This document shows positions 12,446 through 34,342 of a DNA stretch of 64,000 nt, piece after piece. The stretch spans positions 10,230,001 to 10,294,000 of the forward strand of contig NW_026889761.1 of the NCBI RefSeq assembly GCF_033153115.1. The letters run 5' to 3'. The notes under the pieces are model-generated. The model did no database searches and was not told the DNA's origin. It was given only the letters and a program-made list of their open reading frames with translations. The position numbers and the translations under genes are program-made. Each line of letters begins with the position of its first letter. Within the stretch, counting starts at the first letter, position 1. Origin of the DNA: Saccostrea echinata (taxonomy: Eukaryota).

Positions 12446-12983
12446 TCTTCTTAATTATTAAAAAACAAGAGGAAATCGCACTTTTACATTCCCTCTACGA
12501 TTCTGCCGCCATATTTATGTTTAGAAGGTTGCTACGAGAAGTAAGCATGCGCGTAAATATTGTTTCCGGTTATAAGGTTTGACTAAAAAGTGTTGAAATG
12601 CCGAAACATTTGATAATAATAATATAACTCAAAGATAAAAAGACATCAATTTTTAACTTTTGTTTTATAATACTTATTCACGTTTCTTGAACAGAATGCG
12701 CTATGGAAATATTTCCCTTGAAAAAAAGGAGCTTTTATAATAAAATTATATCACCCTATTTTTATTCTTGTTGTATTTTACTATATAGTTTACAGAGATA
12801 TACATGTACATAAATGGAACACTGAATTCAAATCTTATTTGAATTTTGAAGACATTATTCGAAGAAGTTGTCTAGCTTTTCCGGCGTTATTTAGTAGATG
12901 CAAATCCCGAGGTGTTCCGATGTCCGTAAAATGAAAGTAGCCAAAAAAGAAAATTATCGGTAACCGTAAACTTCAAGATTAAA
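12446..12983. promoter_or_regulatory. Probable bidirectional promoter for SPAG17/MECR
   Basis: Divergent ATGs 538 bp apart; CpG-richer than the flanks; YY1-like GCCGCCATATTT (12505), X-box-like GTTGCTACGAGAAG (12528), NRF1-like GCATGCGC (12545), ETS-like TTCCGG. Confidence 0.6.
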
Positions 12984-14102
12984 ATGTTACTTAGAATACT
13001 TGTGCCTATATTAAACCCCCTCAAAAATGGAGGGATTCGGCGGACAGCACATGTGTTTACACGTTCTGCATCGAGTCTGTCATCGCAGGCAATAATGTAC
13101 TCTAAACAAGGTGATCCTAACTCGGTGCTATATCTGGAAAACAGTCAGATATTGCCAGCCCTGAAAGACAATGAAGTGCTGGTGAAAATGAAAATGGCAC
13201 CAATCAATCCTTCTGATATTAACATGATCGAAGGGACCTACCATATGCTACCAGAACTTCCAGCTGTCTGCGGGAACGAGGGGGTCGGTGAGGTTTTGGA
13301 GGTAGGGAAAGGTGTGTCTAGCTTCTGTCCTGGAGACTGGGTAATCCCTGCAGGTACTGGTTTTGGAACCTGGAGGACTTTCGCAGTGTCCACTCAAGAT
13401 ATGCTAAGAAAGGTTCCAAATGATGTACCTGCAATCAGTGCTGCCACAATTATGGTCAATCCTTGTACAGCTTACCGAATGCTAAAGGACTTTGTCTGTT
13501 TACATGAAGGTGACATTGTGATTCAGAACGGTGCAAATAGTGCTGTTGGTCAATCAGTTATTCAGATAGCAAAGGAGTGGGGATACAAAACTATCAATGT
13601 TGTAAGAAACAGACCAGACTTTGATCAACTTGCAGAGTACCTTAAAGGTTTAGGAGCCACCCATGTGGTTACAGAGGAGTTTTCTCGATCTCATCAAATG
13701 AGAGACTTGATCAAATCAATGCCATGTCCCCCAAAATTAGCATTCAACACAGTAGGTGGTGATAGTGCAACAAATCTTCTCAAACATTTGGACAGCAAAG
13801 GTGTAATGGTGACATATGGAGGAATGTCCAAAAAACCAGTGGTGGTATCTACAGGAGCCCTTATTTTTAAGAGGGTGAGGCTAACTGGCTACTGGAATGC
13901 TAAATGGGTGCAAGAGAACAAGGAAAACCCAGAACTTGTGAGGATGTTTGATGATCTGTTTGACTTAGTCAGAGAACGCAAGCTTTTGCCACCATCCTCA
14001 GAAACATTTTCTCTGTCTGATTTCAAGCTAGCAGTCAAATCCTCCCTGGAGGGCTATAAAGGAAGCAAGAAAATTTTCCTCATGGATGATTCTTCCTCCT
14101 GA
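12984..14102 (+). CDS. MECR: Mitochondrial enoyl-[acyl-carrier-protein] reductase (trans-2-enoyl-CoA reductase), intronless CDS, 372 aa
   Basis: Intact ORF; Arg/Ser-rich N-terminal presequence; MDR-family motifs APINPSDINMIEGTY, GNEGVGEV, FGTWRT, VNPCTAYRML, IQNGANSAVGQSVIQIA, MVTYGGM. Confidence 0.96.
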   Translation: MLLRILVPILNPLKNGGIRRTAHVFTRSASSLSSQAIMYSKQGDPNSVLYLENSQILPALKDNEVLVKMKMAPINPSDINMIEGTYHMLPELPAVCGNEGVGEVLEVGKGVSSFCPGDWVIPAGTGFGTWRTFAVSTQDMLRKVPNDVPAISAATIMVNPCTAYRMLKDFVCLHEGDIVIQNGANSAVGQSVIQIAKEWGYKTINVVRNRPDFDQLAEYLKGLGATHVVTEEFSRSHQMRDLIKSMPCPPKLAFNTVGGDSATNLLKHLDSKGVMVTYGGMSKKPVVVSTGALIFKRVRLTGYWNAKWVQENKENPELVRMFDDLFDLVRERKLLPPSSETFSLSDFKLAVKSSLEGYKGSKKIFLMDDSSS

Positions 14103-19368: not shown

Positions 19369-22300
19369 TCATGCACTGTCCATCAGGTTCAAAAGGTCAT
19401 CTTCATCCTCATTCTGGTTGCCCTGAATTGACAGTTCACCTGCTATCCTGCTCAGCTCATCATTCTTATTTTTCTGTTGGGAAAATTTTTGTCATTTTTG
19501 AATAATTCAGATTTCATCCTTGTATAAAATACAATGAAGAACAGAAACAGAAATTTAGAGGTCAGATGAGGACTGACAAACATACCATTAAAGGTTCTTT
19601 GCCATATAACCAATAAAATATATATGTATTGAGTCAGATAAATGTACCATGCATGTACATACAGTCAAACCCCGTTATCTCGAACTCGATGGGACCGAGA
19701 AAAAACTTCAAAATATCCGAGGCTTCGAGATAACAAAGGTAAAATACTTAAGAAGTGGTAAAGGCTTCCAAGTCACTTCGACATATCCATGGTATTCAAG
19801 ATATCCTTGTTCGAGATACCGAAGTTCCACTGTATAAATTTATTATTTACTGGTATTTATATGTATAAACACACTATGTATTATCAATAATCATTGAGAA
19901 AAGATTGACTGAAAAAAAAGAATTGAATTGTGCATGATTTCAATTGAAATATTCTGACAAATGTGAACAGATTTTTGAAGAAAAAGTATTCATTCATTAT
20001 GAGTCATACTCATAAAAAGAGTGACTTCTATAAAAACAAGCACATTTTAAGTTTGCTTTTGTGAGGTACATGCACTGTGAAATATCTTCTCTTGAAGCAC
20101 TTACTGGCTAGAGACAGAGAGGAGAAGAAAAAAAAACACACATAATACATTTAATTTGATTTGACTTTTAATGTCCCTATTAAATTCCATCTGTGCTGAC
20201 CAATTAAGTATATTCATTCAGTGAAGGGAGAATAAAATAAAAACACAAATATATAACTTACATGGCCCTGGTCAGCCTAACAGATGCATAGACATAATTA
20301 ATGTACTTTCTGTTCCTTAATTAGAAATAAACTACATAAATTTAGCTGTTTCATTCTGCCTGTGAGCATGTTATATGTCTTCTTTTTTTTTTTTTTTTAG
20401 CTAAATAGGATTTACCAAATGTACTGTGAGTGAGCTCACAAAACAAAACTCTCCACTGAAAATTCTTTTAAATTGTTGCATCCCTTTCGAATTCTCTTTT
20501 ACAAAGTTATGGATCAGATACAAATTTTACACTTTTTTTTTTGTCAAAGTCCATGAACTCGAACAAAATGACCTTGTGTCAAGGCCATATGATACATCCA
20601 CAGAACATTAGCAGTATATATTTCTTGTATAAACTTCCAATTATTTTCCATAAGAAAGTTACAGACCTTACATGAATCATATACTTTTTCCATTAATGAC
20701 CTTGCCCTTACCACAATGACCCTAGGTCAAGTCATGACTAATCCTTGGGTGGCAAAAATGATCCAATTACATGTATGTCCACAATGCATTGTCGAACACA
20801 AAAATACATGGGTACTTAACATGCTTAAGTGTACAGAAGTGTACAGAATTTAGTACCTATCAATGAACTTTAAACACAAAATATCTGAAAATATTTGAGC
20901 ACCTTTTCTTTATAACACATATAATCTAACCATATTTTTAGATTATGCAGAGATAATTTAAATTAAAGTCTTAAAATCAAATATAAGTGTGTTACAGTAC
21001 AAGTTAACACTATTTACAGTATATTTACATGTACCTTGAGATCAATGTTGACAACTTTTGACTGAGCATGGTCAACTGGTTGAATGCTTGCTACAGAAGC
21101 TTGCCTGAAATGAATATATAAATGTACATTTCAAGAATACCTGTAGACAAATTAAAAAAGAAAACTGCAGGTTCATGTAAACAAATAAATATACATGTAC
21201 ACAGGCATTAACTTTATTATTTTTTTTTCACCTTTGAATAATTTGTGAGTTTTGTGGACTGTAGAGTTACTTCCCTTATATACTAAGTACATCAGTACTT
21301 ACTCTTCCTCTTCATCTGTTTTGAACAGATTGAGTCGGATTTCTGATTTGGCAGCAGAGCTTCCAATTAGCTGACAGAGAAGATCTAACTGAGCTTTGGC
21401 CATTGGATCTGGGGTCGCTGATTCCTAACAAGAGGAAACAAAACATAGTTCATAGTAGGCCAACAAAATCAAGAAAAAAAACTATAACTTATTGCTTCCC
21501 TTCCCCATCCCATATATAAAAGAACGATTCCTTATACATTTAAGCTACTGATAAAATACAGTCAAACCTCGTTATCTCGAACTCGATAGGACCAAGAAAA
21601 AACTTCGAGATATCCGAGGATTCGAGATATCAGGGTAAAATACTTAGAGAATAGAGAGGTTAAGCAGATGACCGTGTACGTCTACGTGTACGTGTAGCTA
21701 GGGAAATCCCCTAATTTACTGCGATTTACGTCATCAGTTTTGCATAGCGCGTAATTCTACAAGTTGTACACAACGTGTAGATTCATATGTACACGTATGA
21801 AAGAACGTGTAGCTTCTTAAACCCAAATTATAGAATATATATTTTTCAGGCGGTCTTTGTTGTGATGTTGAGAGTTTATTACGTACATCTATGAATCTTT
21901 TTTAATCAAAGTCATAGAATTATTTGATACAAATGGATTGTAAAGTGACTTGTTGAAATGACGTTTTACACGTACCGCTACATGTACAGTTTGTTAAAAA
22001 GAACACGATGTTAGTTACGTGTACTTGTAAAATCACTTCTAGGTTTACACGTACACGTAGACGCACACGGTCAAATGCTTAACCTCTCTAATAACTAGTT
22101 GGGACTTAAATATCACTTCGACATATCCATGGTAATCGAGATATCCATGTTCGAGATACCGAAGTTCAACTGTATTGATAATGTTAGATAATTTAGAGAT
22201 ATTTAGTATCAGGTAGGACATTATTGTACAATACTTACAATATCAGATACAGTAGGTGTTGATTTAGATGTGCGATTGGATCCACTAATTTCTACTGGCC

Positions 22301-25300
22301 TTGACACAGAATACCTGTCAAATGTCAATGTTTAATTAAAAATAATCCCACTTGTGTTTCTGGAATGGAGAAGTAATACATGTAATTTGAAATTATTTTC
22401 TGAAAAGACACACAGATGCCACAAAACACTTTGATTATAAAAGCCCAATTGTGCCTCTGGCTTCAGATAGCTAAATCATCTCAAAATTACACTGACAGAT
22501 AGCTTTAGTTTGTATAGATATATTCTATGTAAGTCAAAACACTGAGAAGTCCAGCAAAAGAGGCAAAATAAGATTTTAATAGAAAATGAACATCTAAAAT
22601 TAATACATGCTAATATATATTACATGTATATACAAATGTAAATATACTGAAACCCAAAAGAAACGCAACAAGCAGTAATCTACAAATATTTGAATTTTTT
22701 ATCTAATGATTTTCAAAAATGAATACAGTAAGGTAAAACTCAATTTATAAACATCAGAGATTTTATAAAAATGTTAAATTATAATCTTTTAACTTTAGAA
22801 AGTAACACATGAATGTTAAAACACTCCCCACCCCGGTCATCCAATTACAGCTTGCAAGACTGCTGCGTACAACAGTTGCAGCTTGATTTCTACGATGCAG
22901 TAGGTTCATCAATCTCAAGATCTGAGCGAAAGAAATATTCTTTGCCATTTTTAAATGCCTGTTTTTCAGATGATGAGGTCGAATTTTCTCTAGCCAAGCA
23001 CCATGTAGTAACCCTTGGACTTCCGGTCCAAGGACTGTCATTCATGCTAATGATACGTAAGAGCCTGTTGAGGCGTGAGGTGTTGCATATTTGCATCTGC
23101 AACTCTCCATCACCTTTATTTTGAGATTTTCCAGCTAGAGCAATGGAAATACGTACTTAAGTCATTTTTAGGAAGCCTTGGCATTGCATATGGAAAAGAA
23201 AGGAGAATTTATTTTTCGTAACATTGCTTCATTACTTATGATGAAAAGATACAAATTCTTAAAACCCCATATTATTGCCAAATATTTTGTTAACTTGCAA
23301 TTTTTGATTTCTGTTAAGTGGACTCAAACTTAACTTCCGGTGATGGTATGAAAAGCATTCAACCGTTAAATTATCGATATTTACATAGTTGAAGATGTCC
23401 TTACATTTTAGATACAAAATTATATCCTATATATAATATTTCCCCCTAAAATAGGATGTTGCGTTTCTTTTGCGTTTCAGTATATATATTGAATATGAGA
23501 TAAAGATGCAATATATGCAACAGAAATACAATTCGATTTTATACCAATTAATACCTATTTGTAAATCCCTTATGACCCAGATGCATGGTTTTAATACAAT
23601 CATTTAAATGTGCATTTGTCATTTTCATATCAGTTACCCACTAAAGCAACACAGAAAACAGATTTTTTAAAATATAATTTGAGAATTAATTTAGAAATTC
23701 TACCATTAATATAAAGCTTTAGCAGTAGCTCATCCAAATAAAACACAAACAAAAACTCACTGTTGGCCATAGGCATGTATGTACCTATAAAATTAGTGTG
23801 AACTTTTAAAAACTGTAGTCTTTATTTATTTGAAAGTCATTTAACATTTTAACTTTAAGAACACTGTGTAAAATTATCACTTGCACAAAAAAAAAAAAAA
23901 AATAATGACTCTGTCTTGGTTATATCATTGTCCTATGTTACATGCACAGGTACCAATATATGCATTTTAATGAATATATTTTTTCAATCCTCACCATTTG
24001 AAATAAATGATTCTGTATAGACATAATTATTTTAGCAGGAATAACAGGGTTGTCCATAAGAATTATAATAGCAGGGGACATTAAAAAAGTAGGAAGGGGT
24101 CTATGGTTCCTTCCTTGACAGAGGGATGAGGAGGAATACCAGGATAGTGGGGGGAAATTCCCTGGCCCCAGGGTCTTAGGGACAACCCTGAATAATTATA
24201 TATTTTAGCACCTTTCATGCTGCTTCTTGTCCACTAAATTTATGTACATGCTAACATGTGATTTAAACTAATACAACTCTGTGGCGCTAATTTATGATTG
24301 CATTAATCAATTGAAGAGGATGCTTGCACTAAATTTTAATTATGTACAATTTCAAAACTTCACCATAATATGTCTCTCAAAAAAAAACCTAAACTGGGGA
24401 AAAAAAGTTGACTGCTTTTTTAATTAGTAGATGATCAAATCATGTTAAATGCAATGTGTATAGTAACCAACTATGGAATCAGTGTTCCTGTACATGTGTA
24501 TTACGGTAAGCATGAAACATGTGCAGGGCTCTAATTGGCGACTAATTTAGTCGCCATGGTGCCTAAAAATTTTGATTGGCGACTAAAATTTCTCTATAAG
24601 TCAACAAATTGGCGACCATTTTGTATTGCCTTGGCGATCATCAAATTCCAAAATATAAACATTTTTAACACTTTTTTTCTAAAGAGGTGAAAAGAAGTTT
24701 AAAAGTTAGCAATGAGCATAGCTTGTGTTTTCTTTGTCACCTTGTTTATCAGCTTTTAAAGTTGGCGCCTGAGAAAAATTTGCCTGGCGACTAAAAAATT
24801 TTGTTGGCAACTAAATTTTTTTGATTAGGAGCCAGCTGGCGCCTAAATTTTAGAGGTCACTTAGAGGCCTGACATGTGGCTTTTTAGCCTTATCTAATTC
24901 TTATACTAAGCAGTCTGTGATTCTAATTTTAACCATGCATGTAGATGTTTTTATTTATTTATTTATTTTTTTAATTTTTTTGCTTGTATCTTATAAATTA
25001 CAGATTCCATTCAACTGACTGCCTTGAATGGTAGATTTGTAACATTCCTAATAGAGTTTTCTAACCCCCCCCCCCCCCCCCCCCAATTTCTCATGTCTTA
25101 CATATTGGTTCCTAGGGTAGTGATTCTGTTCCCCATGATATCCAAGGACCCATCTCCCTGAGACGGCTGATAGCTTCCCCCTGGCGGAAATGAAGAGGTT
25201 TTAACCTCAGCACCACTGGCATTGAATAACCTGTGCAGAAAAAGGAAAACATACAGGTATTTATTAAATTTTCATCAGAGAAATACTGTCATTTATCCAT

Positions 25301-28300
25301 AAATAAAATTGTCACATCGTGAACATGTAGAGGTCATATGCACACTGCACAGTACCACATGGAGGCACAAATTTGGAAAACCAAAGATATAATGTAATAA
25401 ACAGAATGTCAATGAATTGTAGTGGATATGGAATTTATTTCACACATCAGACAGGGTTTTAATATATTTTTATCCTTGCTCCACACTCAAGAAAAATCCT
25501 GTCCCACTTCCGAAATAAATTCCATATATCTAAGTACAAGATTATCCTCTTAGACTATATTTAAATCTATGCAGGGGTCTATATTTATCACTGTTTATTA
25601 TTAATATCTTCTTTTTTATCTATCCCACCTGCAAACTGTATTGATTTATATTGCAAAAATTCTTTAGACGGAAAATGCATATTAACATGGAAACAAACCA
25701 AGGCACTGCATATCTTTGTTCTCTCCCAATACAATGTATTGATCGATACTAAATTAAGGTGTTCTCCACAACACTGTAATATAACAACAGAGATTCAATC
25801 AATCAGGCTTTTTTGAGCTCTTAAAGCCAATTAATGGTTTACTTAATGTAGCATGACATGTCTAAAGATGAAACACTTGTCAGGAAATCTCTCAAGGCTT
25901 CAAAGCCAAGAGACCAATTATATCAATAATAGACAGGTTAATTTCAGAGGCTAGGCAAATATTGATTGAAAGTCAGGAAGGAATATGACACAGAGGCAAA
26001 TATTGCCATTATAACGAACAATATTACATATTATTTGGTATATTTGCAGCATGAATAAATTAATAGAAATCTACAATGGGTGAATTGTCTGCATGCAGAC
26101 TTAACTAACCATAAATCATATTCAGCAAATCTGAATGTTTGACAAGAGATTTCCTGTCCATCAATATTTCCCTTGGGAAGCAATGTGTCATGGAATCAAA
26201 TGCAACAAATATTTGCTGAATATTTTGTCTTGGCATTTAAAATGCATTAAACATATTCAGATGAATTCCATCAAATTTCAAAATAAGCGTAGACTAAAAT
26301 TATTGTGAAGACTTTACGACTTCAGAGTAAGAATGTGTAACAAGATTAAAATGATTAAGAATTTTTTGGTATGTTATGCCTTCATGTAAATTTAAGTGCT
26401 CAGGGCAGATAGTTTTTGATTTTGTACATATATCTATGATGACAAAACAAACAGCTCCTTAGAACCAGTCATGCAGTTCTTGTACATTATTTTTACTTTT
26501 ATTTTTAGAATAGCCTCATTGTACATTCTTCCCACTTCTAAAGCATCTTTTGATGATTATTTTATGATTTCACTTACTTAATAGTTCCTGGAATCTCTGC
26601 TCCATAAGGCACAGCTCCACCTGTTGGTAAAACAAAGCGGCCATTGCTATTTTGTACTTTGTCCTTGAGGAATATTGAAACCTAAAATAAATGGTAATCT
26701 TTAAAAATGTTTAAATTATAATTAAAAATATCAACAACAAAAAGTTTAAAAAAAAAAAACACCATTTTATTTTAAGAAGATGGGTGAACATGACGAGTGA
26801 AAAGCCTATAGTATGACAAACATGAAGGTGAAAAATCATCAATTCTCAATTATAACAAAATTTTCCTTGATATTTCATCTAACATTAAAATACACTTTAT
26901 GAAAAATCTCTACAATTTGCAAAAATCTCACAAAGATTGAAATTATTTGCCTATGAAATATTATACACACACTACAGAGGGCAAAAAGAGTCATTTTCTT
27001 TTACTAAAACACTATTTTTCGATATGAGTGGGTCTTCGCTCCATTTTTTTGAAAGTTAATCCTCAAAGTTTGCATAAAAATATACATCTTTTGGTTACCC
27101 AAAACATGGAACAATGACCCACTATACCTTAAAAATATACTTTTATGACATAACATTTGCATTATTTTCGAGAAACACTTGAAGTCCATTAAGTCAAGGG
27201 TCATATCACAAACATGATTTAAATGCCACTATTCATCAGGTCTTGTGTAGTCTAGTGGTTATAGTATGCTTGTCTCGAAAGAAAATGATACTTAGGATTT
27301 TTATTGTTAGGGTTCAAACCCCACGAGTACCACATTATTTTTTAATAAAAGAATAAATTGCCGAGAAAACTTTTCTCAGAAAAGTTTTGTTTATCATAAT
27401 TTCATAAACTTCAATAATAAGGACGTAACTCTAAATGCAAAATTCACAAACTGAACGTGATTTTTATATATCTGAAGCTATAGGCTTTCTGCATGCTATG
27501 TTCACCCATTTCCTTTCAAATTCATTGATACCTAAAATAAACATTATTAATAAATTGCAAAGGTTTGATTTTCAAAAAAAAAAAAAAAAAAAAATATAAA
27601 AAAATAAAATTTTTAAAAAATTGAAACGCAGGAGAACTAAAAAAAAAATCATTTATAAAGGTTTTACTAAAACTGCAAATAGCTAAAAATGACACTGAAT
27701 TCATGCAGATTGTGTTTTAGGTTAAAAGATCAAAATGTCATATAAAACCAACAACATTAACATTTTTTCTCTCCAACTTTTACCTCAACAGACCCAAGTA
27801 TCAAAATGAGACCACTCATCTATGAATCAATGAATTGATTTGAAATTGCATCAAAGGACATTGTATGTATTACAGCTCACTGGTTTGATCAATTAATCTA
27901 AGATTAAAGGACTCAATTAAGTCCCATCTCTCCCGTAAACTTAAATTTCTCGATAATTCATTACATGTATTAAAAGCACACAATGGTCCATACTGGTAAA
28001 TTTTCAGCAGATCTTTTCTGAGTGTAAAATTTCTTTTTAGTAAATTTTGTCATAAAACAGATATTACAATACATTCATCTGAGGGTGCATTTTACAAAGA
28101 ATGAAACCTATACTTACCCTTATATGCATATCTTGGAAAAAATTTAGTAGTGTCTGTCTTATAAGCTGAAATTCTCCCATAGAAAGAGATCCAAAAGTCT
28201 AAAAAGAAACAAAATATATATAAGGACACTTTTTTAACTGAAACATTTGACTACATGGACATAGTTATCCTCTATGAATTGACTGTATCAATCAACATTT

Positions 28301-31300
28301 TTGTCGTCATTCTTTGCAATATTGCAGACCACTATATTTTTGTGACACCTAATGTTGTGAAATTGTTATTTAATATTTATAAGAAAGACAAAATTTTCCA
28401 TGCATTCAGACTGTTGTTGTACATGTATACATATTAAATCTTTATTAATAGAAATGTATGTTAAGATTGAAAATTTGGCTTGCAGAGGCCTAAGTAAAAA
28501 CATGTACATCACAAATAAAAAGTAATAGGAAAACTCATTTACAGGGAAGTCCCTGGAAACTCTTATTCTGCTTTCTTATAACCATTAAGCTGCTTTATAT
28601 CCATATAAGAAACAAAGTGAAGAGTTTTCTGTGGGATTTATAAAAGTTTCCTTATAAGTGAGTTCTTTGTATCTGAGTTTGACTGTATTTTATAAGCTTT
28701 ACCTCTATCAGTAGTCTGTAGACATGATCATTCTTTATATCTGTGTGTTACTGTATATAAGCTTTACCTCTATCAGTAGCCTGTAGACATGATCGTTCTT
28801 TATATCTGAGTGTTACTGTATATAAGCTTCACCTCTATCAGTAGCCTGTAGACATGATCGTTCTTTATATCTGAGTGTTACTGTATATAAGCTTTACCTC
28901 TATCAGTAGCCTGTAGACATGATGGTTCTATATATCTGAGTGTTACTGTATATAAGCTTCACCTCTATCAGTAGCCTGTAGACATGATGGTTCTTTATAT
29001 CTGAGTGTTACTGTATATAAGCTTCACCTCTATGAGTAGCCTGTAGACATGATCGTTCTTTATATCTGAGTGTTACTGTATATAAGCTTCACCTCTATAA
29101 GTAGTCTGTAGACATGATCGTTCTTTATATCTGAGTGTTACTGTATATAAGCTTTACCTCTATCAGTAGCCTGTAGACATGATCGTTCTATATATCTGAG
29201 TGTTACTGTATATAAGCTTTACCTCTATCAGTAGCCTGTAGACATGATGGTTCTTTATATCTGAGTGTTACTGTATATAAGCTTTACCTCTATCAGTAGC
29301 CTGTAGACATGATCGTTCTTTATATCTGAGTTTGACTGTATCTAAGCTTCACCTCTATCAGTAGTCTGTAGACATGATCGTTCTTTATATCTGTGTGTTA
29401 CTGTATATAAGCTTTACCTCTATCAGTAGCCTGTAGACATGATCGTTCTATATATCTGAGTGTTACTGTATATAAGCTTTACCTCTATCAGTAGCCTGTA
29501 GACATGATGGTTCTTTATATCTGAGTGTTACTGTATATAAGCTTTACCTCTATCAGTAGTCTGTAGACATGATCGTTCTTTATATCTGAGTGTTACTGTA
29601 TATAAGCTTTACCTCTATCAGTAGTCTGTAGACATGATCGTTCTATATATCTGAGTGTGACTGTATCTAAGCTTTACCTCTATCAGTAGCCTGTAGACAT
29701 GATCGTTCTTTATATCTGAGTGTTACTGTATATAAGCTTTACCTCTATCAGTAGCCTGTAGACATGATGGTTCTTTATATCTGAGTGTTACTGTATATAA
29801 GCTTCACCTCTATAAGTAGTCTGTAGACATGATCGTTCTTTATATCTGAGTGTTACTGTATATAAGCTTTACCTCTATCAGTAGCCTGTAGACATGATCG
29901 TTCTATATATCTGAGTGTTACTGTATATAAGCTTTACCTCAATCAGTAGTCTGTAGACATGATCGTTCTTTATATCTGAGTTTGACTGTATCTAAGCTTT
30001 ACCTCTATCAGTAGTCTGTAGACATGATCGTTCTTTATATCTGAGTTTGACTGTATCTAAGCTTTACCTCTATCAGTAGCCTGTAGACATGATCGTTCTT
30101 TATATCTGAGTGTTACTGTATATAAGCTTTACCTCTATCAGTAGCCTGTAGACATGATCGTTCTATATATCTGAGTGTTACTGTATATAAGCTTTACCTC
30201 AATCAGTAGTCTGTAGACATGATCGTTCTTTATATCTGAGTGTTACTGTATATAAGCTTTACCTCAATCAGTAGTCTGTAGACATGATCGTTCTTTATAT
30301 CTGAGTGTTACTGTATATAAGCTTTACCTCTATCAGTAGTCTGTAGACATGATCGTTCTTTATATCTGAGTGTTACTGTATATAAGCTTTACCTCTATCA
30401 GTAGCCTGTAGACATGATCGTTCTTTATATCTGAGTGTTACTGTATATAAGCTTTACCTCTATCAGTAGCCTGTAGACATGATGGTTCTTTATATCTGAG
30501 TGTTACTGTATATAAGCTTTACCTCTATCAGTAGCCTGTAGACATGATTGTTCTTTATATCTGAGTGTTACTGTATCTAAGCTTTACCTCTATCAGTAGC
30601 CTGTAGACATGATCGTTCTATATATCTGAGTGTTACTGTATATAAGCTTTACCTCTATCAGTAGTCTGTAGACATGATCGTTCTTTATATCTGAGTGTTA
30701 CTGTATATAAGCTTTACCTCTATCAGTAGCCTGTAGACATGATGGTTCTTTATATCTGAGTGTTACTGTATATAAGCTTTACCTCTATCAGTAATCTGTA
30801 GACATGATCGTTCTTTATATCTGAGTGTTACTGTATATAAGCTTTACCTCTATCAGTAGTCTGTAGACATGATCGTTCTTTATATCTGAGTGTTACTGTA
30901 TATAAGCTTTACCTCTATCAGTAGCCTGTAGACATGATGGTTCTTTATATCTGTGTGTTACTGTATATAAGCTTTACCTCTATAAGTAGTCTGTAGACAT
31001 GATCCACTTGTTGCTTGATGTTTGGCTGACCTTCAACAAAGGCACGGATGGCATCCATGTGATTTAATGTGATCAGTATGATCTCCTTTGGCCTTAGACA
31101 CAGTGACACTTGGTACTTGAAGGCCATTGTCATCAGGTCATATAGCTAGAAATAAAAGAAGTTTCATGGAGTCTCTACATTCATTTTTACATCTTTAAGA
31201 TTCTTTAGCTTCCTCAACATTATTATCAAATTTTCTATTGCCTGGTTAAATTTTTCCTTTTAAGACATATTGAATACATTGCAATGTTTATGGCCAGCAA

Positions 31301-34300
31301 TTTGATCATGAACATTTCCTGAAACTAACTGAGGAATATTGATAAGTTTCTTGCAAAATTGGTATATTCAATGTTCAGCAGATCTAAGTAGTTTATGTCA
31401 ACATTTATGCAGTACTAGCTCATGTACTTAAAGATTAAGCACTAATAAGAACTTTTCTGATGGAAAAAAGGTTAACAGCTAGTGCAAACTTGCTTGAGGA
31501 CTAGTAAATGTCAACAAGAAAAATTTGCAAATTGTTCGAAAAGTTCGTGGACGATGTCAATCTTTGTTATACTACTTCCAAGAAATTTAAAATAAGCACA
31601 ATATTATGTGTAAAAATATTTGTTTTGTTGATCTGTGAAATTTCATTTCATTCGATTTGATAGAAATTAATTTACTTCATTTTAAAATCAACATGTTTTG
31701 TAACCACGGAGCACACTTAAAATCAATGTAACGTCAAAAACATAGCGTCAAGAATTTCTTAAAAATACTATCCCTATACATTCACACAGTTTAGTACAAT
31801 ACCCACGTATTAAAAACCTTTTTCAATCACTTGACATTTATTTTTCTAACAATTGTTCTCGTTTTATAATTTCCTTGGTTAATGTTTAATTTCTTTTACC
31901 GCTTAACTGTGCTTTCACAAGATCAACAACTCTGAAGCGCCTACGTCTTTCCATGACGTCCCAACTTTTAAAAGTTTTCGTTCAGATTTTTACAGTTAAA
32001 CCGTTTCTTCACAGATTGTCCTGGTCCGATACAGAGTCTCTGTCACTCAAATACCGCCTCTACCATTTACGCACACATGCACTACTCGCTTGTGGCATTT
32101 TTTCTGATTCCTCCAACATTTTAGCGTTAATTCAGGATTTTCCACGAGTATAACACAAAACTGCATCGTTATCTGCTGCTCCGTGACGTTCTGCAACGTC
32201 ATCGTTTTTGTCGTTTTCAATGAGGACTATCTATCTTCTCAAATTGATTTCTTTTTACCGAAGCAAAATATTAAGCCATAATTTGGAATACGAATCGATG
32301 TAACAGTTCTTAATTTAACCGTCTAGGATTTTTTCGTTTTTGCTCCATTTTACAGAGAAGATGACTACAGACATTATTTAGTGTACTGTTTGTAAATAAC
32401 TAAATTTTGACCTGCGCCGCGATCCGATTTTTGCAGTTTTAAATTCTGGATAAGTTTTAAATAAATCATGCTATTTTTGAAAAATTTCATACTAATCATT
32501 TAAATTTATTGTTAAAATATTTCTACCAAATTTGGATGACATATGACGTTAAATAAAAAAGATATGAAAGAAGTCCACGAACTTTTCGAACAACCCTCGT
32601 AGTATATATATTTTTGAAAATGCTTCCTTAGTTAGTTTCTGCAAAATAGAACATGATTATGACTTTATAAATATGTTTAACTTTTCTTGCCAAGGAAAGC
32701 TCTACATCTACTTGTAACTTAGAACTTTTTTAAAACATTCTATCAGATTCTTCCAGGATTCTTTTGTGTTCTATCATATATTCTATCAGATCTAAAGCAG
32801 CTGGAAGGAAAACACTGTTTTTTTTTCCATGATGCAACAAATACAAACAAATCTTACTTTGTCCATGCTTGGGGCATTCAGCCTCATGATTGAGGCATGA
32901 GCTAATCTGTCAAACACTGTCCTCATGGCTTTTTTGGAATACAGAGGCTGGGGCTTAAATAACTCCTCCATGAATCTTTTGTGGAACATTGTAGATATGA
33001 TATCATGTAGAACTGTAAAATGAAGAAAATATGTTTATACAAACAAATTAAATTTGGCACTAAATATGACACAGTAAATAAACTACAAGTATAAACTATG
33101 TGTACACCTTTGCCCATTATATCCAACAGGTTGGTACAAGATTTAAGATGGCACAAATATATAATACACCTTGGCCAAAGAAAATTTTTGTGACAGATAA
33201 GATTTCAGATCTATTTGATTGTTTCTGTTATATGAGTTTGTTCAAGGCTTAATTTACCTAGTATATTCTCTTTGAAGACAGGGTTTGACATTAACTTTTA
33301 TGAGTACTAGACTAGTCGGGCTACTTCCCATAATTTTTACTAGCCCTGACCATATAAAAATCACTAGCCCTGACCAAACTTGAAAATTTTACTTTTTATA
33401 ACTTGCTAATTATTATGGGAAAAAGGTTGGAAACCATACTTTTAATAAAGATATATTCTCTCCCACCTGTTAAGATATATTTTTACAGATTGTTCTATAA
33501 GTCGCAGGCCAGTGAGCCAGGATAAGCGGGACATGCGAATATTATATGCCTTAAAGAACATTCAACAAACTTTAATAAAATAATTACCATAAATATAAAT
33601 AAATTAAAGAATATATTATTCAATAACTATTCATTCCAATTGATACTGAATGAAGCTAGTTTCAATGACTAATCTATTACAGCCCGATTAAAATGTTTTA
33701 GAATATTTACTTGACTGAAATGAGGGTTAAACTTTATTTCATCCACATGACCAGTCAGTCTAGATCAAGAACATTTTACATGACCGGACCACTCATTTAC
33801 TAGACTGGGTCGGTCGGGCGTGCCTTAGTGTCAAACCCTGGAAGAAGTGGACAGGCATAGCCTTTGGATGTATGCCATGCCTGTCCACTTCTCTAAAGAG
33901 TATAACGTTCAAAGGAATTGTTGTAAGTTGGATGCGGTCGATTTTTTCTATAATATAAGGCTTTAATATGAAAAAAGGCACGGTTGCAGTTCTATACATA
34001 TATTTTAAAATGTGACATACAGAAAAATGAGTATACATGTACTTATCTTTGAGACAAACAAACAATTTCTCAAAAATCTTGATCCGTGTGAAAGGTTAAT
34101 AAAATATTTTTTTTGCATGCAGTGTAACCGATTTTCGTAAAAAGATAGGCCTACTATCTTAATGCAGTACAGCCTACAGGCATGTAAGCACCCCCTGGCT
34201 GGTAGAATGGATTAATAATACTGCACTTACCTTTCCTTGATTTTTCATTTGGAATATTTTGAGCTCTTAGTCTTTGGTCCAAAATATAAATCATTTCACC

Positions 34301-34342
34301 GCCTAGGTTAATAAACAGTAGCGGTAAAGTTTTGTACGACAT
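19369..34342 (-). CDS. OSCP1: Protein OSCP1 (organic solute carrier partner 1 / NOR1), complete multi-exon gene
   Basis: Exons (minus): 34342-34231 (MSYKTLPLLFINLGGEMIYILDQRLRAQNIP), 33012-32858, 31145-30978, 28198-28118, 26681-26578, 25230-25102, [23784-23761], 22314-22239, 21424-21303, 21104-21035, [20276-20262], [20107-20105], 19473-19369 (TGA). All GT-AG and phase-consistent. Conserved motifs LAHASIMRLN, SMDKLYDLMTMAFKYQ, IRQTLLNFFQDMHIRVSIFL and C-terminal EDDLLNLMD. Confidence 0.94.
19662..19832. mobile_element. Tc1/mariner-type MITE (cagtcaaacc..gttatctcgaac family)
   Basis: TA|cagtcaaaccccgttatctcgaac ... gttcgagataccgaagttccactg|TA; related copies at 21559-22172, 42233-42398 and partial ~39475-39565. 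Confidence 0.85.
20105..20107 (-). CDS. OSCP1: Candidate 3-nt microexon of OSCP1 (CCA, Pro)
   Basis: Minus strand ...ttttttcttctcctctctgtctcTAG|CCA|GTAAGT: long polypyrimidine tract, perfect donor, phase-0 intron. Confidence 0.6.
20262..20276 (-). CDS. OSCP1: Candidate 15-nt microexon of OSCP1 (ADQGH)
   Basis: Minus strand ...tctaTGCatctgtTAG|GCTGACCAGGGCCAT|GTAAGT; phase 0-0. Confidence 0.6.
21559..22172. mobile_element. Same MITE family, interrupted by a nested insertion
   Basis: Ends match the 19662-19832 copy; TA TSDs. Confidence 0.85.
21653..22089. mobile_element. Nested PIF/Harbinger-like MITE
   Basis: ~44-bp TIR agagaggttaagcagatgaccgtgtacgtctacgtgtacgtgta / tacacgtacacgtagacgcacacggtcaaatgcttaacctctct; 3-bp TSD AAT. 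Confidence 0.75.
22645..23482 (-). mobile_element. Internally deleted Tc1-like transposon with transposase remnant
   Basis: TIRs tactgaaacccaaaagaaacgcaaca / tgttgcgtttcttttgcgtttcagta with TA flanks; minus-strand remnant 'NDSPWTGSPRVTT' (decayed GRPR linker) and 'IRPHHLKNRHL'. Confidence 0.75.
23761..23784 (-). CDS. OSCP1: Candidate 24-nt microexon of OSCP1 (YIHAYGQQ)
   Basis: Minus strand ...actaattttaTAG|GTACATACATGCCTATGGCCAACA|GTGAGT; phase 2-2, open in frame. Confidence 0.55.
24045..24190. mobile_element. 146-bp MITE with CAGGG termini and 5-bp TSD (hAT5-like)
   Basis: TIR cagggttgtccataaga / tcttagggacaaccctg; TSD AATAA on both sides. Confidence 0.8.
24524..24871. mobile_element. MITE with 7-bp TSD (P-element-like or hAT variant)
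   Basis: TIR cagggctctaa / ttagaggcctg; TSD ACATGTG; many internal tggcg(a/c)ctaa motifs. Confidence 0.75.
28670..31003 (-). repeat. 60-bp tandem array (~39 copies) derived from the end of OSCP1 exon 3, its 5' splice site and a MITE-like terminus
   Basis: Minus-strand unit GATCATGTCTACAGRCTACTGATAGAG|GTAAAGCTTATATACAGTAACACTCAGATATAAAGAAC; the first copy is the real exon end (30978). Confidence 0.95.
31532..32599. mobile_element. Non-autonomous mariner-like element
   Basis: Inverted ends ttgttcgaaaagttcgtggac / gtccacgaacttttcgaacaaccctcg|TA; left tip eroded. Confidence 0.7.
33279..33840. mobile_element. Non-autonomous CAGGG-ended element with 5-bp TSD (hAT5-like)
   Basis: TIR cagggtttgaca / tgtcaaaccctg; TSD GAAGA. 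Confidence 0.8.

What the first reader, a model, noticed from the sequence alone, without database searches (positions are those of the whole stretch)
20099..20140. Candidate 3-nucleotide microexon (single Pro) in OSCP1
Seen: a pyrimidine tract of about 25 nt, then TAG, CCA and a perfect GTAAGT, inside a phase-0 intron of the sense strand. This arrangement is unlikely by chance. Established: 3-nt exons are the smallest frame-preserving microexons and standard aligners usually miss them. Inference: inclusion adds one proline between ..NIDLK and KNKNDE...
Basis: partly seen in the sequence, partly recalled or inferred. Interest (0 to 1): 0.7.

Follow-up and report, generated by a model that had tools for sequence, protein, structure and literature searches.

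The report
Unconfirmed three-base exon in oyster OSCP1
An intron of the oyster gene OSCP1 holds strong splice signals around just three bases, 154 bases after a second tiny exon whose counterpart is annotated in other oysters; it is likely a rarely used three-base exon that would add one proline, but the transcripts seen here skip it, and such exons are an already known kind.

Summary
The motif is real. On the minus strand, the last (phase-0, 1,561-nt) intron of oyster OSCP1 has a 27-nt pyrimidine tract, TAG, CCA (20107-20105) and GTAAGT. It lies 154 nt after a 15-nt exon (ADQGH) whose counterpart is annotated in three other oyster lineages. 

For: strongest tract of the gene's acceptors; 55-nt AG-free zone; TGCATG (RBFOX motif) at +31, the only one within 100 nt among 15 comparable genomic sites; frame kept. 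One extra residue gives the 8-residue linker seen in 68 of 81 homologues.

Against: RNA-like contigs from 3 of 4 runs show only skipping; 0 of 29 proteins covering the junction carry the proline; 3-nt motifs show no genome-wide excess (18 versus 44 and 27 for 2 and 4 nt; about 8 expected by chance); no UGC or CUAAY; the site resembles the end of a dispersed repeat. Both negative RNA and protein sources detect 3-nt exons poorly. Cross-species DNA conservation could not be tested.

Verdict: likely (about 0.55) a minor cassette microexon of a known kind, unconfirmed. A predicted RNA stem that bulges out the 15-nt exon's acceptor is an extra find.

The parts
20105..20107 (-). Candidate 3-nt cassette exon CCA (Pro); inclusion not observed
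   Evidence: Sequence; phase 0
20108..20136 (-). Pyrimidine tract with CU/UC repeats and acceptor TAG; 19 of 20 pyrimidines, highest of the 13 sites tabulated in the gene; AG-free zone 55 nt; no UGC, no CUAAY within 100 nt
20099..20104 (-). Consensus donor GTAAGT
20069..20074 (-). TGCATG, the RBFOX motif, +31 from the 3-nt exon and +188 from the 15-nt exon
   Evidence: motif meaning from PMC4317164 passages
20262..20276 (-). 15-nt cassette microexon (ADQGH), with UGC at -12 and CUAAU at -48
   Evidence: 5-aa inserts at the same junction in P0002, P0103, P0101 (GTQEN), P0114 (GEGGN), P0107 (ANQGH)
20269..20286 (-). 5' arm of a predicted 15-bp RNA stem; the acceptor UAG of the 15-nt exon (20279-20277) is bulged out
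20188..20202 (-). 3' arm of the predicted stem, between the two microexons
   Evidence: pair probabilities 0.70-1.0 in four window sizes
21035..21104 (-). Upstream coding exon ending ...NIDLK
19369..19473 (-). Coding part of the last exon, KNKNDE...MDSA*
23761..23784 (-). 24-nt alternative exon (YIHAYGQQ) of the same gene, present in X1 and absent in X2 isoforms of several oysters
19369..34342 (-). OSCP1 coding span (Pfam PF10188)

Best explanation
The CCA between TAG and GTAAGT is likely a minor, tissue-restricted 3-nt cassette exon that is usually skipped and would add one proline after K339 of OSCP1 when included. Shown: the splice signals, phase 0, the direct-skip junction in RNA-like contigs, and the neighbouring 15-nt exon. 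Inferred mechanism: three bases are too short for ordinary exon definition, so skipping is the default. The long CU-rich tract and AG-free zone would give a strong acceptor that PTB-type proteins can mask. An RBFOX protein on the UGCAUG at +31 would promote inclusion in some cells, probably neurons or muscle. The two microexons would give skip, +5, +1 and +6 residue forms. The predicted stem over the 15-nt exon's acceptor would help keep that exon off. The insertion falls in a low-confidence, likely flexible C-terminal linker, so the effect on the protein is probably small.
For: Tract 19/20, highest of the 13 sites tabulated in the gene; AG-free zone 55 nt, tied for longest (several constitutive borders there were 1-3 nt off and were fixed). 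Among 15 distinct genomic sites of the form tract-AG-NNN-GTAAGT, this one has the best tract, the longest AG-free zone and the only TGCATG within 100 nt. TGCATG follows GTAAGT within 60 nt in 2 of 205 sampled cases, one being this site. The tight pattern has 2 matches in 923 Mb, this being one (pattern shaped on this site). It sits on the sense strand, in frame, 154 nt from an exon whose counterpart is in 5 of 29 junction-spanning proteins. Long AG-free zones and UCUC-rich tracts mark eMIC-dependent exons (10.1101/2021.02.24.432780, passage). Downstream TGCATG is enriched up to twofold at alternative micro-exons (PMC4317164, passages). The ID..EL linker is 8 residues in 68 of 81 homologues and 7 in the oyster skip form, so +1 is a tolerated length.
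Against: Contigs of X1, X2 and X3 (2 samples, 2 studies) join 21035 to 19473 with no room for extra bases; X5 did not cover the exons. 0 of 29 proteins spanning NIDLK have the proline, while 5 have the 5-aa insert; 41 of the 56 members of the largest oyster cluster were not seen. No genome-wide excess of spacer 3: 18, against 44 (spacer 2) and 27 (spacer 4), and reversed-pattern controls of 68, 66 and 49; tight pattern 2 versus control 13. About 8 chance sites are expected per genome. No UGC and no CUAAY upstream. No proline in this linker in any of 81 homologues. The TGCATG may serve the 15-nt exon or descend from a repeat.
Confidence: 0.55

Rival explanations
1. Unused pseudo-exon: a chance AG-NNN-GTAAGT next to a pyrimidine tract that exists for another reason, such as a regulatory or locally duplicated U/CU-rich element behind the 15-nt exon.
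For: No spacer-3 excess genome-wide; about 8 expected by chance; skipping only; no Pro isoform. The 43 nt after the 15-nt exon's donor resemble the tract before this acceptor, at 107-nt spacing: score 43, above 2000 of 2000 shuffles and 108 of 108 pyrimidine-rich background acceptors. A local duplication could supply the tract without selection.
Against: A chance site would seldom also be sense-intronic, within 200 nt of a conserved alternative microexon, and top-ranked among 15 sites for tract, AG-free zone and TGCATG. The negative sources detect 3-nt exons poorly.
Confidence: 0.24
2. Decayed, unused 3' end of an abundant dispersed repeat. The repeat supplies a T-rich tract and CTAGCCAGT; a 2-nt insertion would have produced GTAAGT.
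For: 211 genomic matches to a pattern shared by the site and the repeat end, control 0 (pattern built after seeing both). The sequence after the AG aligns with the repeat end; only 5 of 2000 nulls with a forced NNN-GTAAGT and 6 of 4000 background AG sites score as well, and at least 4 of those 6 are visibly copies of the same repeat. Median local score is reached by 2 of 273 pyrimidine-rich background sites.
Against: nhmmer profiles from 25 copies give no hit at this site even at E up to 100. With the first 9 nt forced, 52 of 2000 nulls reach the score. The likeness was noticed after the fact among several repeat families. A repeat origin does not exclude later use as an exon.
Confidence: 0.14
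3. The acceptor is real but serves an alternative last exon: TAG read through the donor gives PVSASRED... for 36 codons to a stop, with AATAAA at 19844; or the CAG four bases further on puts a stop codon first and trims the last 34 residues.
For: 36-codon open frame and a poly(A)-like hexamer. Gene models in two other oysters end by reading from the 15-nt exon into this intron (P0101, P0107), so alternative 3' ends occur here.
Against: Does not explain the perfect donor at +4. A 36-codon frame is not rare in such DNA (own estimate about 5%). No protein with this tail among the 29.
Confidence: 0.06
4. Recursive (ratchet) splice point used to remove the intron in two steps.
For: Acceptor and donor signals are nearly adjacent.
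Against: Recursive sites are AG immediately followed by GU, typically in introns over 10 kb (PMC13149111, passages). Here three bases intervene and the intron is 1,561 nt.
Confidence: 0.01

Closest known systems
3-nt microexons: mouse Ncam, Drosophila troponin T (PMC8042270, passages), human TLN1 (PMC4317164, passage), Drosophila homothorax micro-Ex8 (PMC7392893, abstract)
   Same: One-codon, frame-keeping exon between AG and GT; hard to map from reads.
   Different: Those have transcript support, and TLN1 and hth are conserved; this one has neither shown. hth micro-Ex8 is the first 3 nt of a 48-nt exon; no strong downstream donor for such a longer form was found here.
RBFOX/PTBP1-regulated alternative micro-exons (PMC4317164)
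   Same: Pyrimidine-rich upstream flank and TGCATG in the downstream intron.
   Different: Motif conservation, binding and tissue bias untested; that work is on mammals and set aside exons under 6 nt.
SRRM3/4 (eMIC)-dependent neural microexons (10.1101/2021.02.24.432780; 10.1101/2024.09.17.613571)
   Same: Long AG-free zone and long UCUC-rich tract.
   Different: No UGC near the acceptor and no CUAAY. About a quarter of SRRM3/4 targets also lack UGC. The neighbouring 15-nt exon has both and fits this class better.
OSCP1 family (PF10188), a ciliary base and axoneme protein (PMC6522010, passages)
   Same: The host gene is a clear orthologue; microexons are enriched in cilia genes in vertebrate retina (10.1101/2021.09.08.459463, passages).
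   Different: The 5-aa insert at this junction was seen only in oyster proteins among those examined; no paper held both 'OSCP1' and 'microexon'.

Membership tests
Alternative cassette microexon (3-27 nt) | 3-27 nt flanked by AG and GT on the sense strand of an intron | tested here: met
Alternative cassette microexon (3-27 nt) | Keeps the frame, adds no stop | tested here: met
   phase-0 intron, CCA = Pro
Alternative cassette microexon (3-27 nt) | Inclusion junctions in RNA | tested here: inconclusive
   3 of 4 runs show skipping only; contigs drop rare variants. No raw-read run was listed.
Alternative cassette microexon (3-27 nt) | Inclusion isoform among proteins | tested here: inconclusive
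   0 of 29; sources are gene models and assemblies; 41 of 56 members of the main cluster unseen
Alternative cassette microexon (3-27 nt) | Conserved exon and flanks in related genomes | not testable with these tools
   No other oyster genome is held; the metagenome scan returned no locus with this intron from an oyster
eMIC (SRRM3/4)-dependent microexon | UGC between branch point and AG | tested here: not met
   none in 100 nt; the 15-nt exon has one at -12
eMIC (SRRM3/4)-dependent microexon | Long AG-free zone and long UCUC-rich tract | tested here: met
   55 nt; 19/20 pyrimidines; six TCTC/CTCT words
eMIC (SRRM3/4)-dependent microexon | Strong CUAAY branch point | tested here: not met
   none; nearest YTNAY at -76
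eMIC (SRRM3/4)-dependent microexon | eMIC-bearing Srrm2/3/4 in the genome and neural-biased inclusion | tested here: inconclusive
   PF15230 search blank, and its control rang nowhere; tissue bias not testable
RBFOX-enhanced microexon | TGCATG in the proximal downstream intron | tested here: met
   +31; background about 1-2%
RBFOX-enhanced microexon | Inclusion depends on RBFOX binding | not testable with these tools
   needs knockdown, CLIP or a minigene
Recursive splice site | AG directly followed by GT in a long intron | tested here: not met
   3 nt intervene; intron 1,561 nt
Repeat-derived site (dispersed repeat end, possibly HINE-like) | Significant similarity to the repeat | tested here: inconclusive
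   pairwise tests suggestive, profile search blank. The HINE label rests on terminal palindromes and PMC7492417 passages, not on a sequence match.

The most novel reading that the evidence does not exclude
A one-codon exon was born from the decayed end of a mobile repeat inside an oyster-specific two-microexon cassette (15 nt + 3 nt). It lost the repeat's 13-nt frame-breaking donor and gained an in-frame one. An RNA stem that bulges out the 15-nt exon's acceptor switches between the two, and inclusion returns the C-terminal linker of a ciliary protein to the 8-residue length of most animals.
Probability: 0.08. Interest if true: 0.55.

Novelty: new member of a known kind. Interest (0 to 1): 0.24.

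Why it matters
If real, it adds a mollusc example to the short list of 3-nt exons. It would show that oyster annotation misses such exons, and it gives a compact 300-nt cassette (15-nt UGC-type exon, RNA stem, 3-nt RBFOX/PTB-type exon) for minigene tests of microexon control in molluscs. My two searches ('microexon' + 'oyster'; 'microexon', '3-nt', 'eMIC', 'mollusc') listed no study of this. It changes no concept: 3-nt exons are known, and one proline in a likely flexible linker probably has a small effect.

Tried and rejected
No run on record as RNA and no raw-read run was listed; this blank is no evidence. No contig covered 20086-20393, also no evidence. Runs X4 and X6 remain unexamined. The metagenome scan gave 19 loci of OSCP1 relatives, none an oyster copy of the last intron. 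Searches on the C-terminal part and cluster listings gave intron read-through fragments into the last exon and no Pro isoform. The PF15230 search was uninformative. The earlier-findings look-up returned nothing. Whole-region folding z-scores were not significant (-1.22 and +0.75), so the stem rests on the duplex test: -24.2 kcal/mol, matched by 13 of 5000 random partners, 53 of 6000 random AG sites and 28 of 970 GC-matched sites, and it was found after the fact. The pair list was mis-indexed and redone. A profile search for the repeat missed the site. The pattern with downstream TGCATG gave 84 matches versus control 26, but many are repeat copies, so I did not use it as evidence. Recursive splicing was rejected on geometry. 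The AlphaFold model is too uncertain at the junction (pLDDT under 50 at residues 322-344) to predict the proline's effect. No supplementary files were read; microexon tables in supplements could hold an OSCP1 entry I did not see.

Full report
Observation. The minus strand reads a 27-nt stretch with one purine, then TAG (20110-20108), CCA (20107-20105) and GTAAGT (20104-20099). In a scan of both strands of the window for tract + YAG + 1-51 nt + GTRAG, it is the only 3-nt case among 16 rows. The host gene is OSCP1 (PF10188). Eleven exons of the window translate exactly to P0115, 381 aa, named OSCP1-like X1 of Saccostrea echinata by its source. The site is in the last intron (21034-19474, 1,561 nt, phase 0), so inclusion would put Pro between K339 and K340 of the 373-aa form.

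Neighbourhood. A 15-nt exon (20276-20262, ADQGH) lies 154 nt upstream in transcript order. Five of the 29 proteins that span NIDLK have a 5-residue insert at this junction: GTQEN in Crassostrea virginica (P0002, P0103, P0101), GEGGN in C. gigas/angulata (P0114) and ANQGH in Ostrea edulis (P0107); 24 have none. I infer that the 15-nt exon is a real, fast-evolving oyster microexon; it was not among the Saccostrea isoforms listed. A 24-nt alternative exon (23784-23761) is a third small cassette. The 15-nt exon has UGC at -12 and CUAAU at -48. Its acceptor sits in a predicted 15-bp stem (20286-20269 with 20202-20188) with the UAG bulged out; pair probabilities are 0.70-1.0 in four window sizes. 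The duplex is the strongest of 12 acceptors of the gene and is matched by 13 of 5000 random partners and 28 of 970 GC-matched AG sites. Whole-region z-scores are not significant and covariation was not testable.

Is it more than chance? From 928 kb of strand-bases (400 kb of the own genome plus the window), the rate of tract >=19/20 + YAG + NNN + GTAAGT is about 7e-6 per intron of this size but about 8 per genome. Whole-genome counts of Y10-N-YAG-spacer-GTAAGT are 44, 18 and 27 for spacers 2, 3 and 4, with reversed controls of 66, 68 and 49; this site itself misses that pattern by one purine. A pattern shaped on the site has 2 matches against a control of 13, and for spacers 1-12 together 151 against 159, with over 40 of the 100 listed from one repeat. 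So the motif class shows no excess and the motif alone proves nothing. Context is what sets this site apart. I fetched one representative of each distinct 3-nt match (14 loci; duplicates dropped). Against them this site has the best tract (19/20 versus 14-18), the longest AG-free zone (55 versus 13-48) and the only TGCATG within 100 nt. It is also sense-intronic and next to a conserved alternative microexon.

Transcript and protein evidence. Six runs were listed, all as assembled contigs with RNA status guessed; four were laid. X1, X2 (one sample) and X3 join 21035 directly to 19473; in X1 and X3 the record coordinates leave exactly 69 letters for the upstream exon and none for an insert. X5 did not cover the exons. 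Skipping of both microexons is therefore the main form in those samples. Contigs drop rare variants, so this does not show absence. X4 and X6 were not examined. None of the 29 junction-spanning proteins has the proline; 41 of 56 members of the largest oyster cluster were not seen. From my own knowledge, standard aligners and gene predictors rarely place 3-nt exons; PMC4317164 (passages) reports 21.7% of 3-nt inserts mapping ambiguously and set aside exons under 6 nt.

Rival origins. First, the 43 nt after the 15-nt exon's donor resemble the tract before the candidate acceptor at 107-nt spacing (score above 2000 of 2000 shuffles and 108 of 108 background acceptors), so a local duplication may have supplied the tract. 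Second, the site resembles the 3' end of a dispersed repeat, with 211 matches to a shared pattern and 7 end cores in 400 kb. The anchored score is reached by 5 of 2000 nulls with forced NNN-GTAAGT, but by 52 of 2000 when the first 9 nt are forced, and nhmmer finds nothing at the site. This is suggestive only and was noticed after the fact. If true, part of the TGCATG may also come from the repeat, which weakens it as independent support. Third, an alternative last exon (36 codons, AATAAA at 19844) fits the acceptor but not the donor. Recursive splicing fails on geometry and intron length (PMC13149111, passages).

Likely mechanism. Shown: signals, phase, skip product. Inferred: default skipping of a 3-nt exon; a strong but PTB-maskable acceptor; help from RBFOX at +31. 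Downstream TGCATG is enriched up to twofold at alternative micro-exons and PTBP1 represses some through their tracts (PMC4317164, passages). Long AG-free zones and UCUC-rich tracts mark eMIC-dependent exons, with UGC and CUAAY as further marks (10.1101/2021.02.24.432780, passages). The site has the first two and lacks the last two; UGC is present in 74-79% of SRRM3/4 targets and is not strictly needed (10.1101/2024.09.17.613571, passages). Whether the genome encodes an eMIC factor is unresolved. On the protein, the junction lies in a segment with pLDDT under 50 just before a short predicted helix at 346-350. The linker between ID and EL is 8 residues in 68 of 81 homologues, 7 in the oyster skip form and Pinctada, and never holds a proline. 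One more residue is thus a tolerated length, but this residue is unusual there. OSCP1 localises to the ciliary base and axoneme in worm, mouse and human cells and is needed for cilia in zebrafish (PMC6522010, passages).

Comparison and novelty. 3-nt exons are known from mouse Ncam and Drosophila troponin T (PMC8042270, passages), human TLN1 and Drosophila homothorax (PMC7392893, abstract). No paper in the library held both 'OSCP1' and 'microexon'; 'microexon' + 'oyster' listed six papers, none on this by title and abstract start. PMC7492417 (passages) describes oyster HINE repeats ending in palindromes; calling the repeat here HINE-like is a lead, not a test. Other papers were seen only as listings, except 10.1101/2021.09.08.459463 (passages). 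No supplements were read.

Verdict. Observation confirmed; interpretation plausible but unproven. My estimate that the exon is included at a measurable level is about 0.55, a judgement that weighs no class-wide excess and no inclusion evidence against an unusually good context. If real it is a new member of a known kind. Interest 0.24.

Noticed in passing
window 20286-20188 (minus): Predicted 15-bp RNA stem enclosing the 15-nt microexon's donor, with its acceptor UAG bulged out; strongest such duplex among 12 acceptors of the gene.
   Followed up: partly
window 28662-31004: 65-nt tandem repeat, 36 copies, that copies the last codons of OSCP1 exon 3 with its GTAAAG donor and an upstream CAG, making dozens of decoy donors and 13-nt pseudo-exons in the intron.
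   Followed up: no
window 23784-23761 (minus): 24-nt alternative exon YIHAYGQQ (YMHAYGQQ in Crassostrea), shared by all oyster genera seen.
   Followed up: partly
window 20260-20219 and 20153-20115 (minus): Two similar U/CU-rich stretches 107 nt apart, possibly an old local duplication.
   Followed up: partly
L067 (G000:C19:1582402-1582424; similar matches at C19:1682927 and C41:1912813): Another 3-nt candidate (CGA) with a GTAAGT only about 37 nt before its acceptor, present in three places.
   Followed up: no
G000, many contigs: A repeat family carries a ready-made tract-CAG-GGTATA-GTAAGT 6-nt pseudo-exon in dozens of copies; another carries a 13-nt one. Both inflate microexon motif scans in this genome.
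   Followed up: no
window 12930-14102 (plus): Single 390-codon open frame that looks like a mitochondrial enoyl-thioester reductase (MECR-type; name recalled, not searched), apparently without introns.
   Followed up: no
window 19640-19835 and 21560-22175: Two copies of a high-copy inverted-repeat element inside OSCP1 introns, with heavy contig depth in all four runs.
   Followed up: no
P0004 (unnamed Logan protein): Oyster OSCP1 form with a 14-residue insert after ...MHIR, a further possible alternative exon; not looked for in the window.
   Followed up: no
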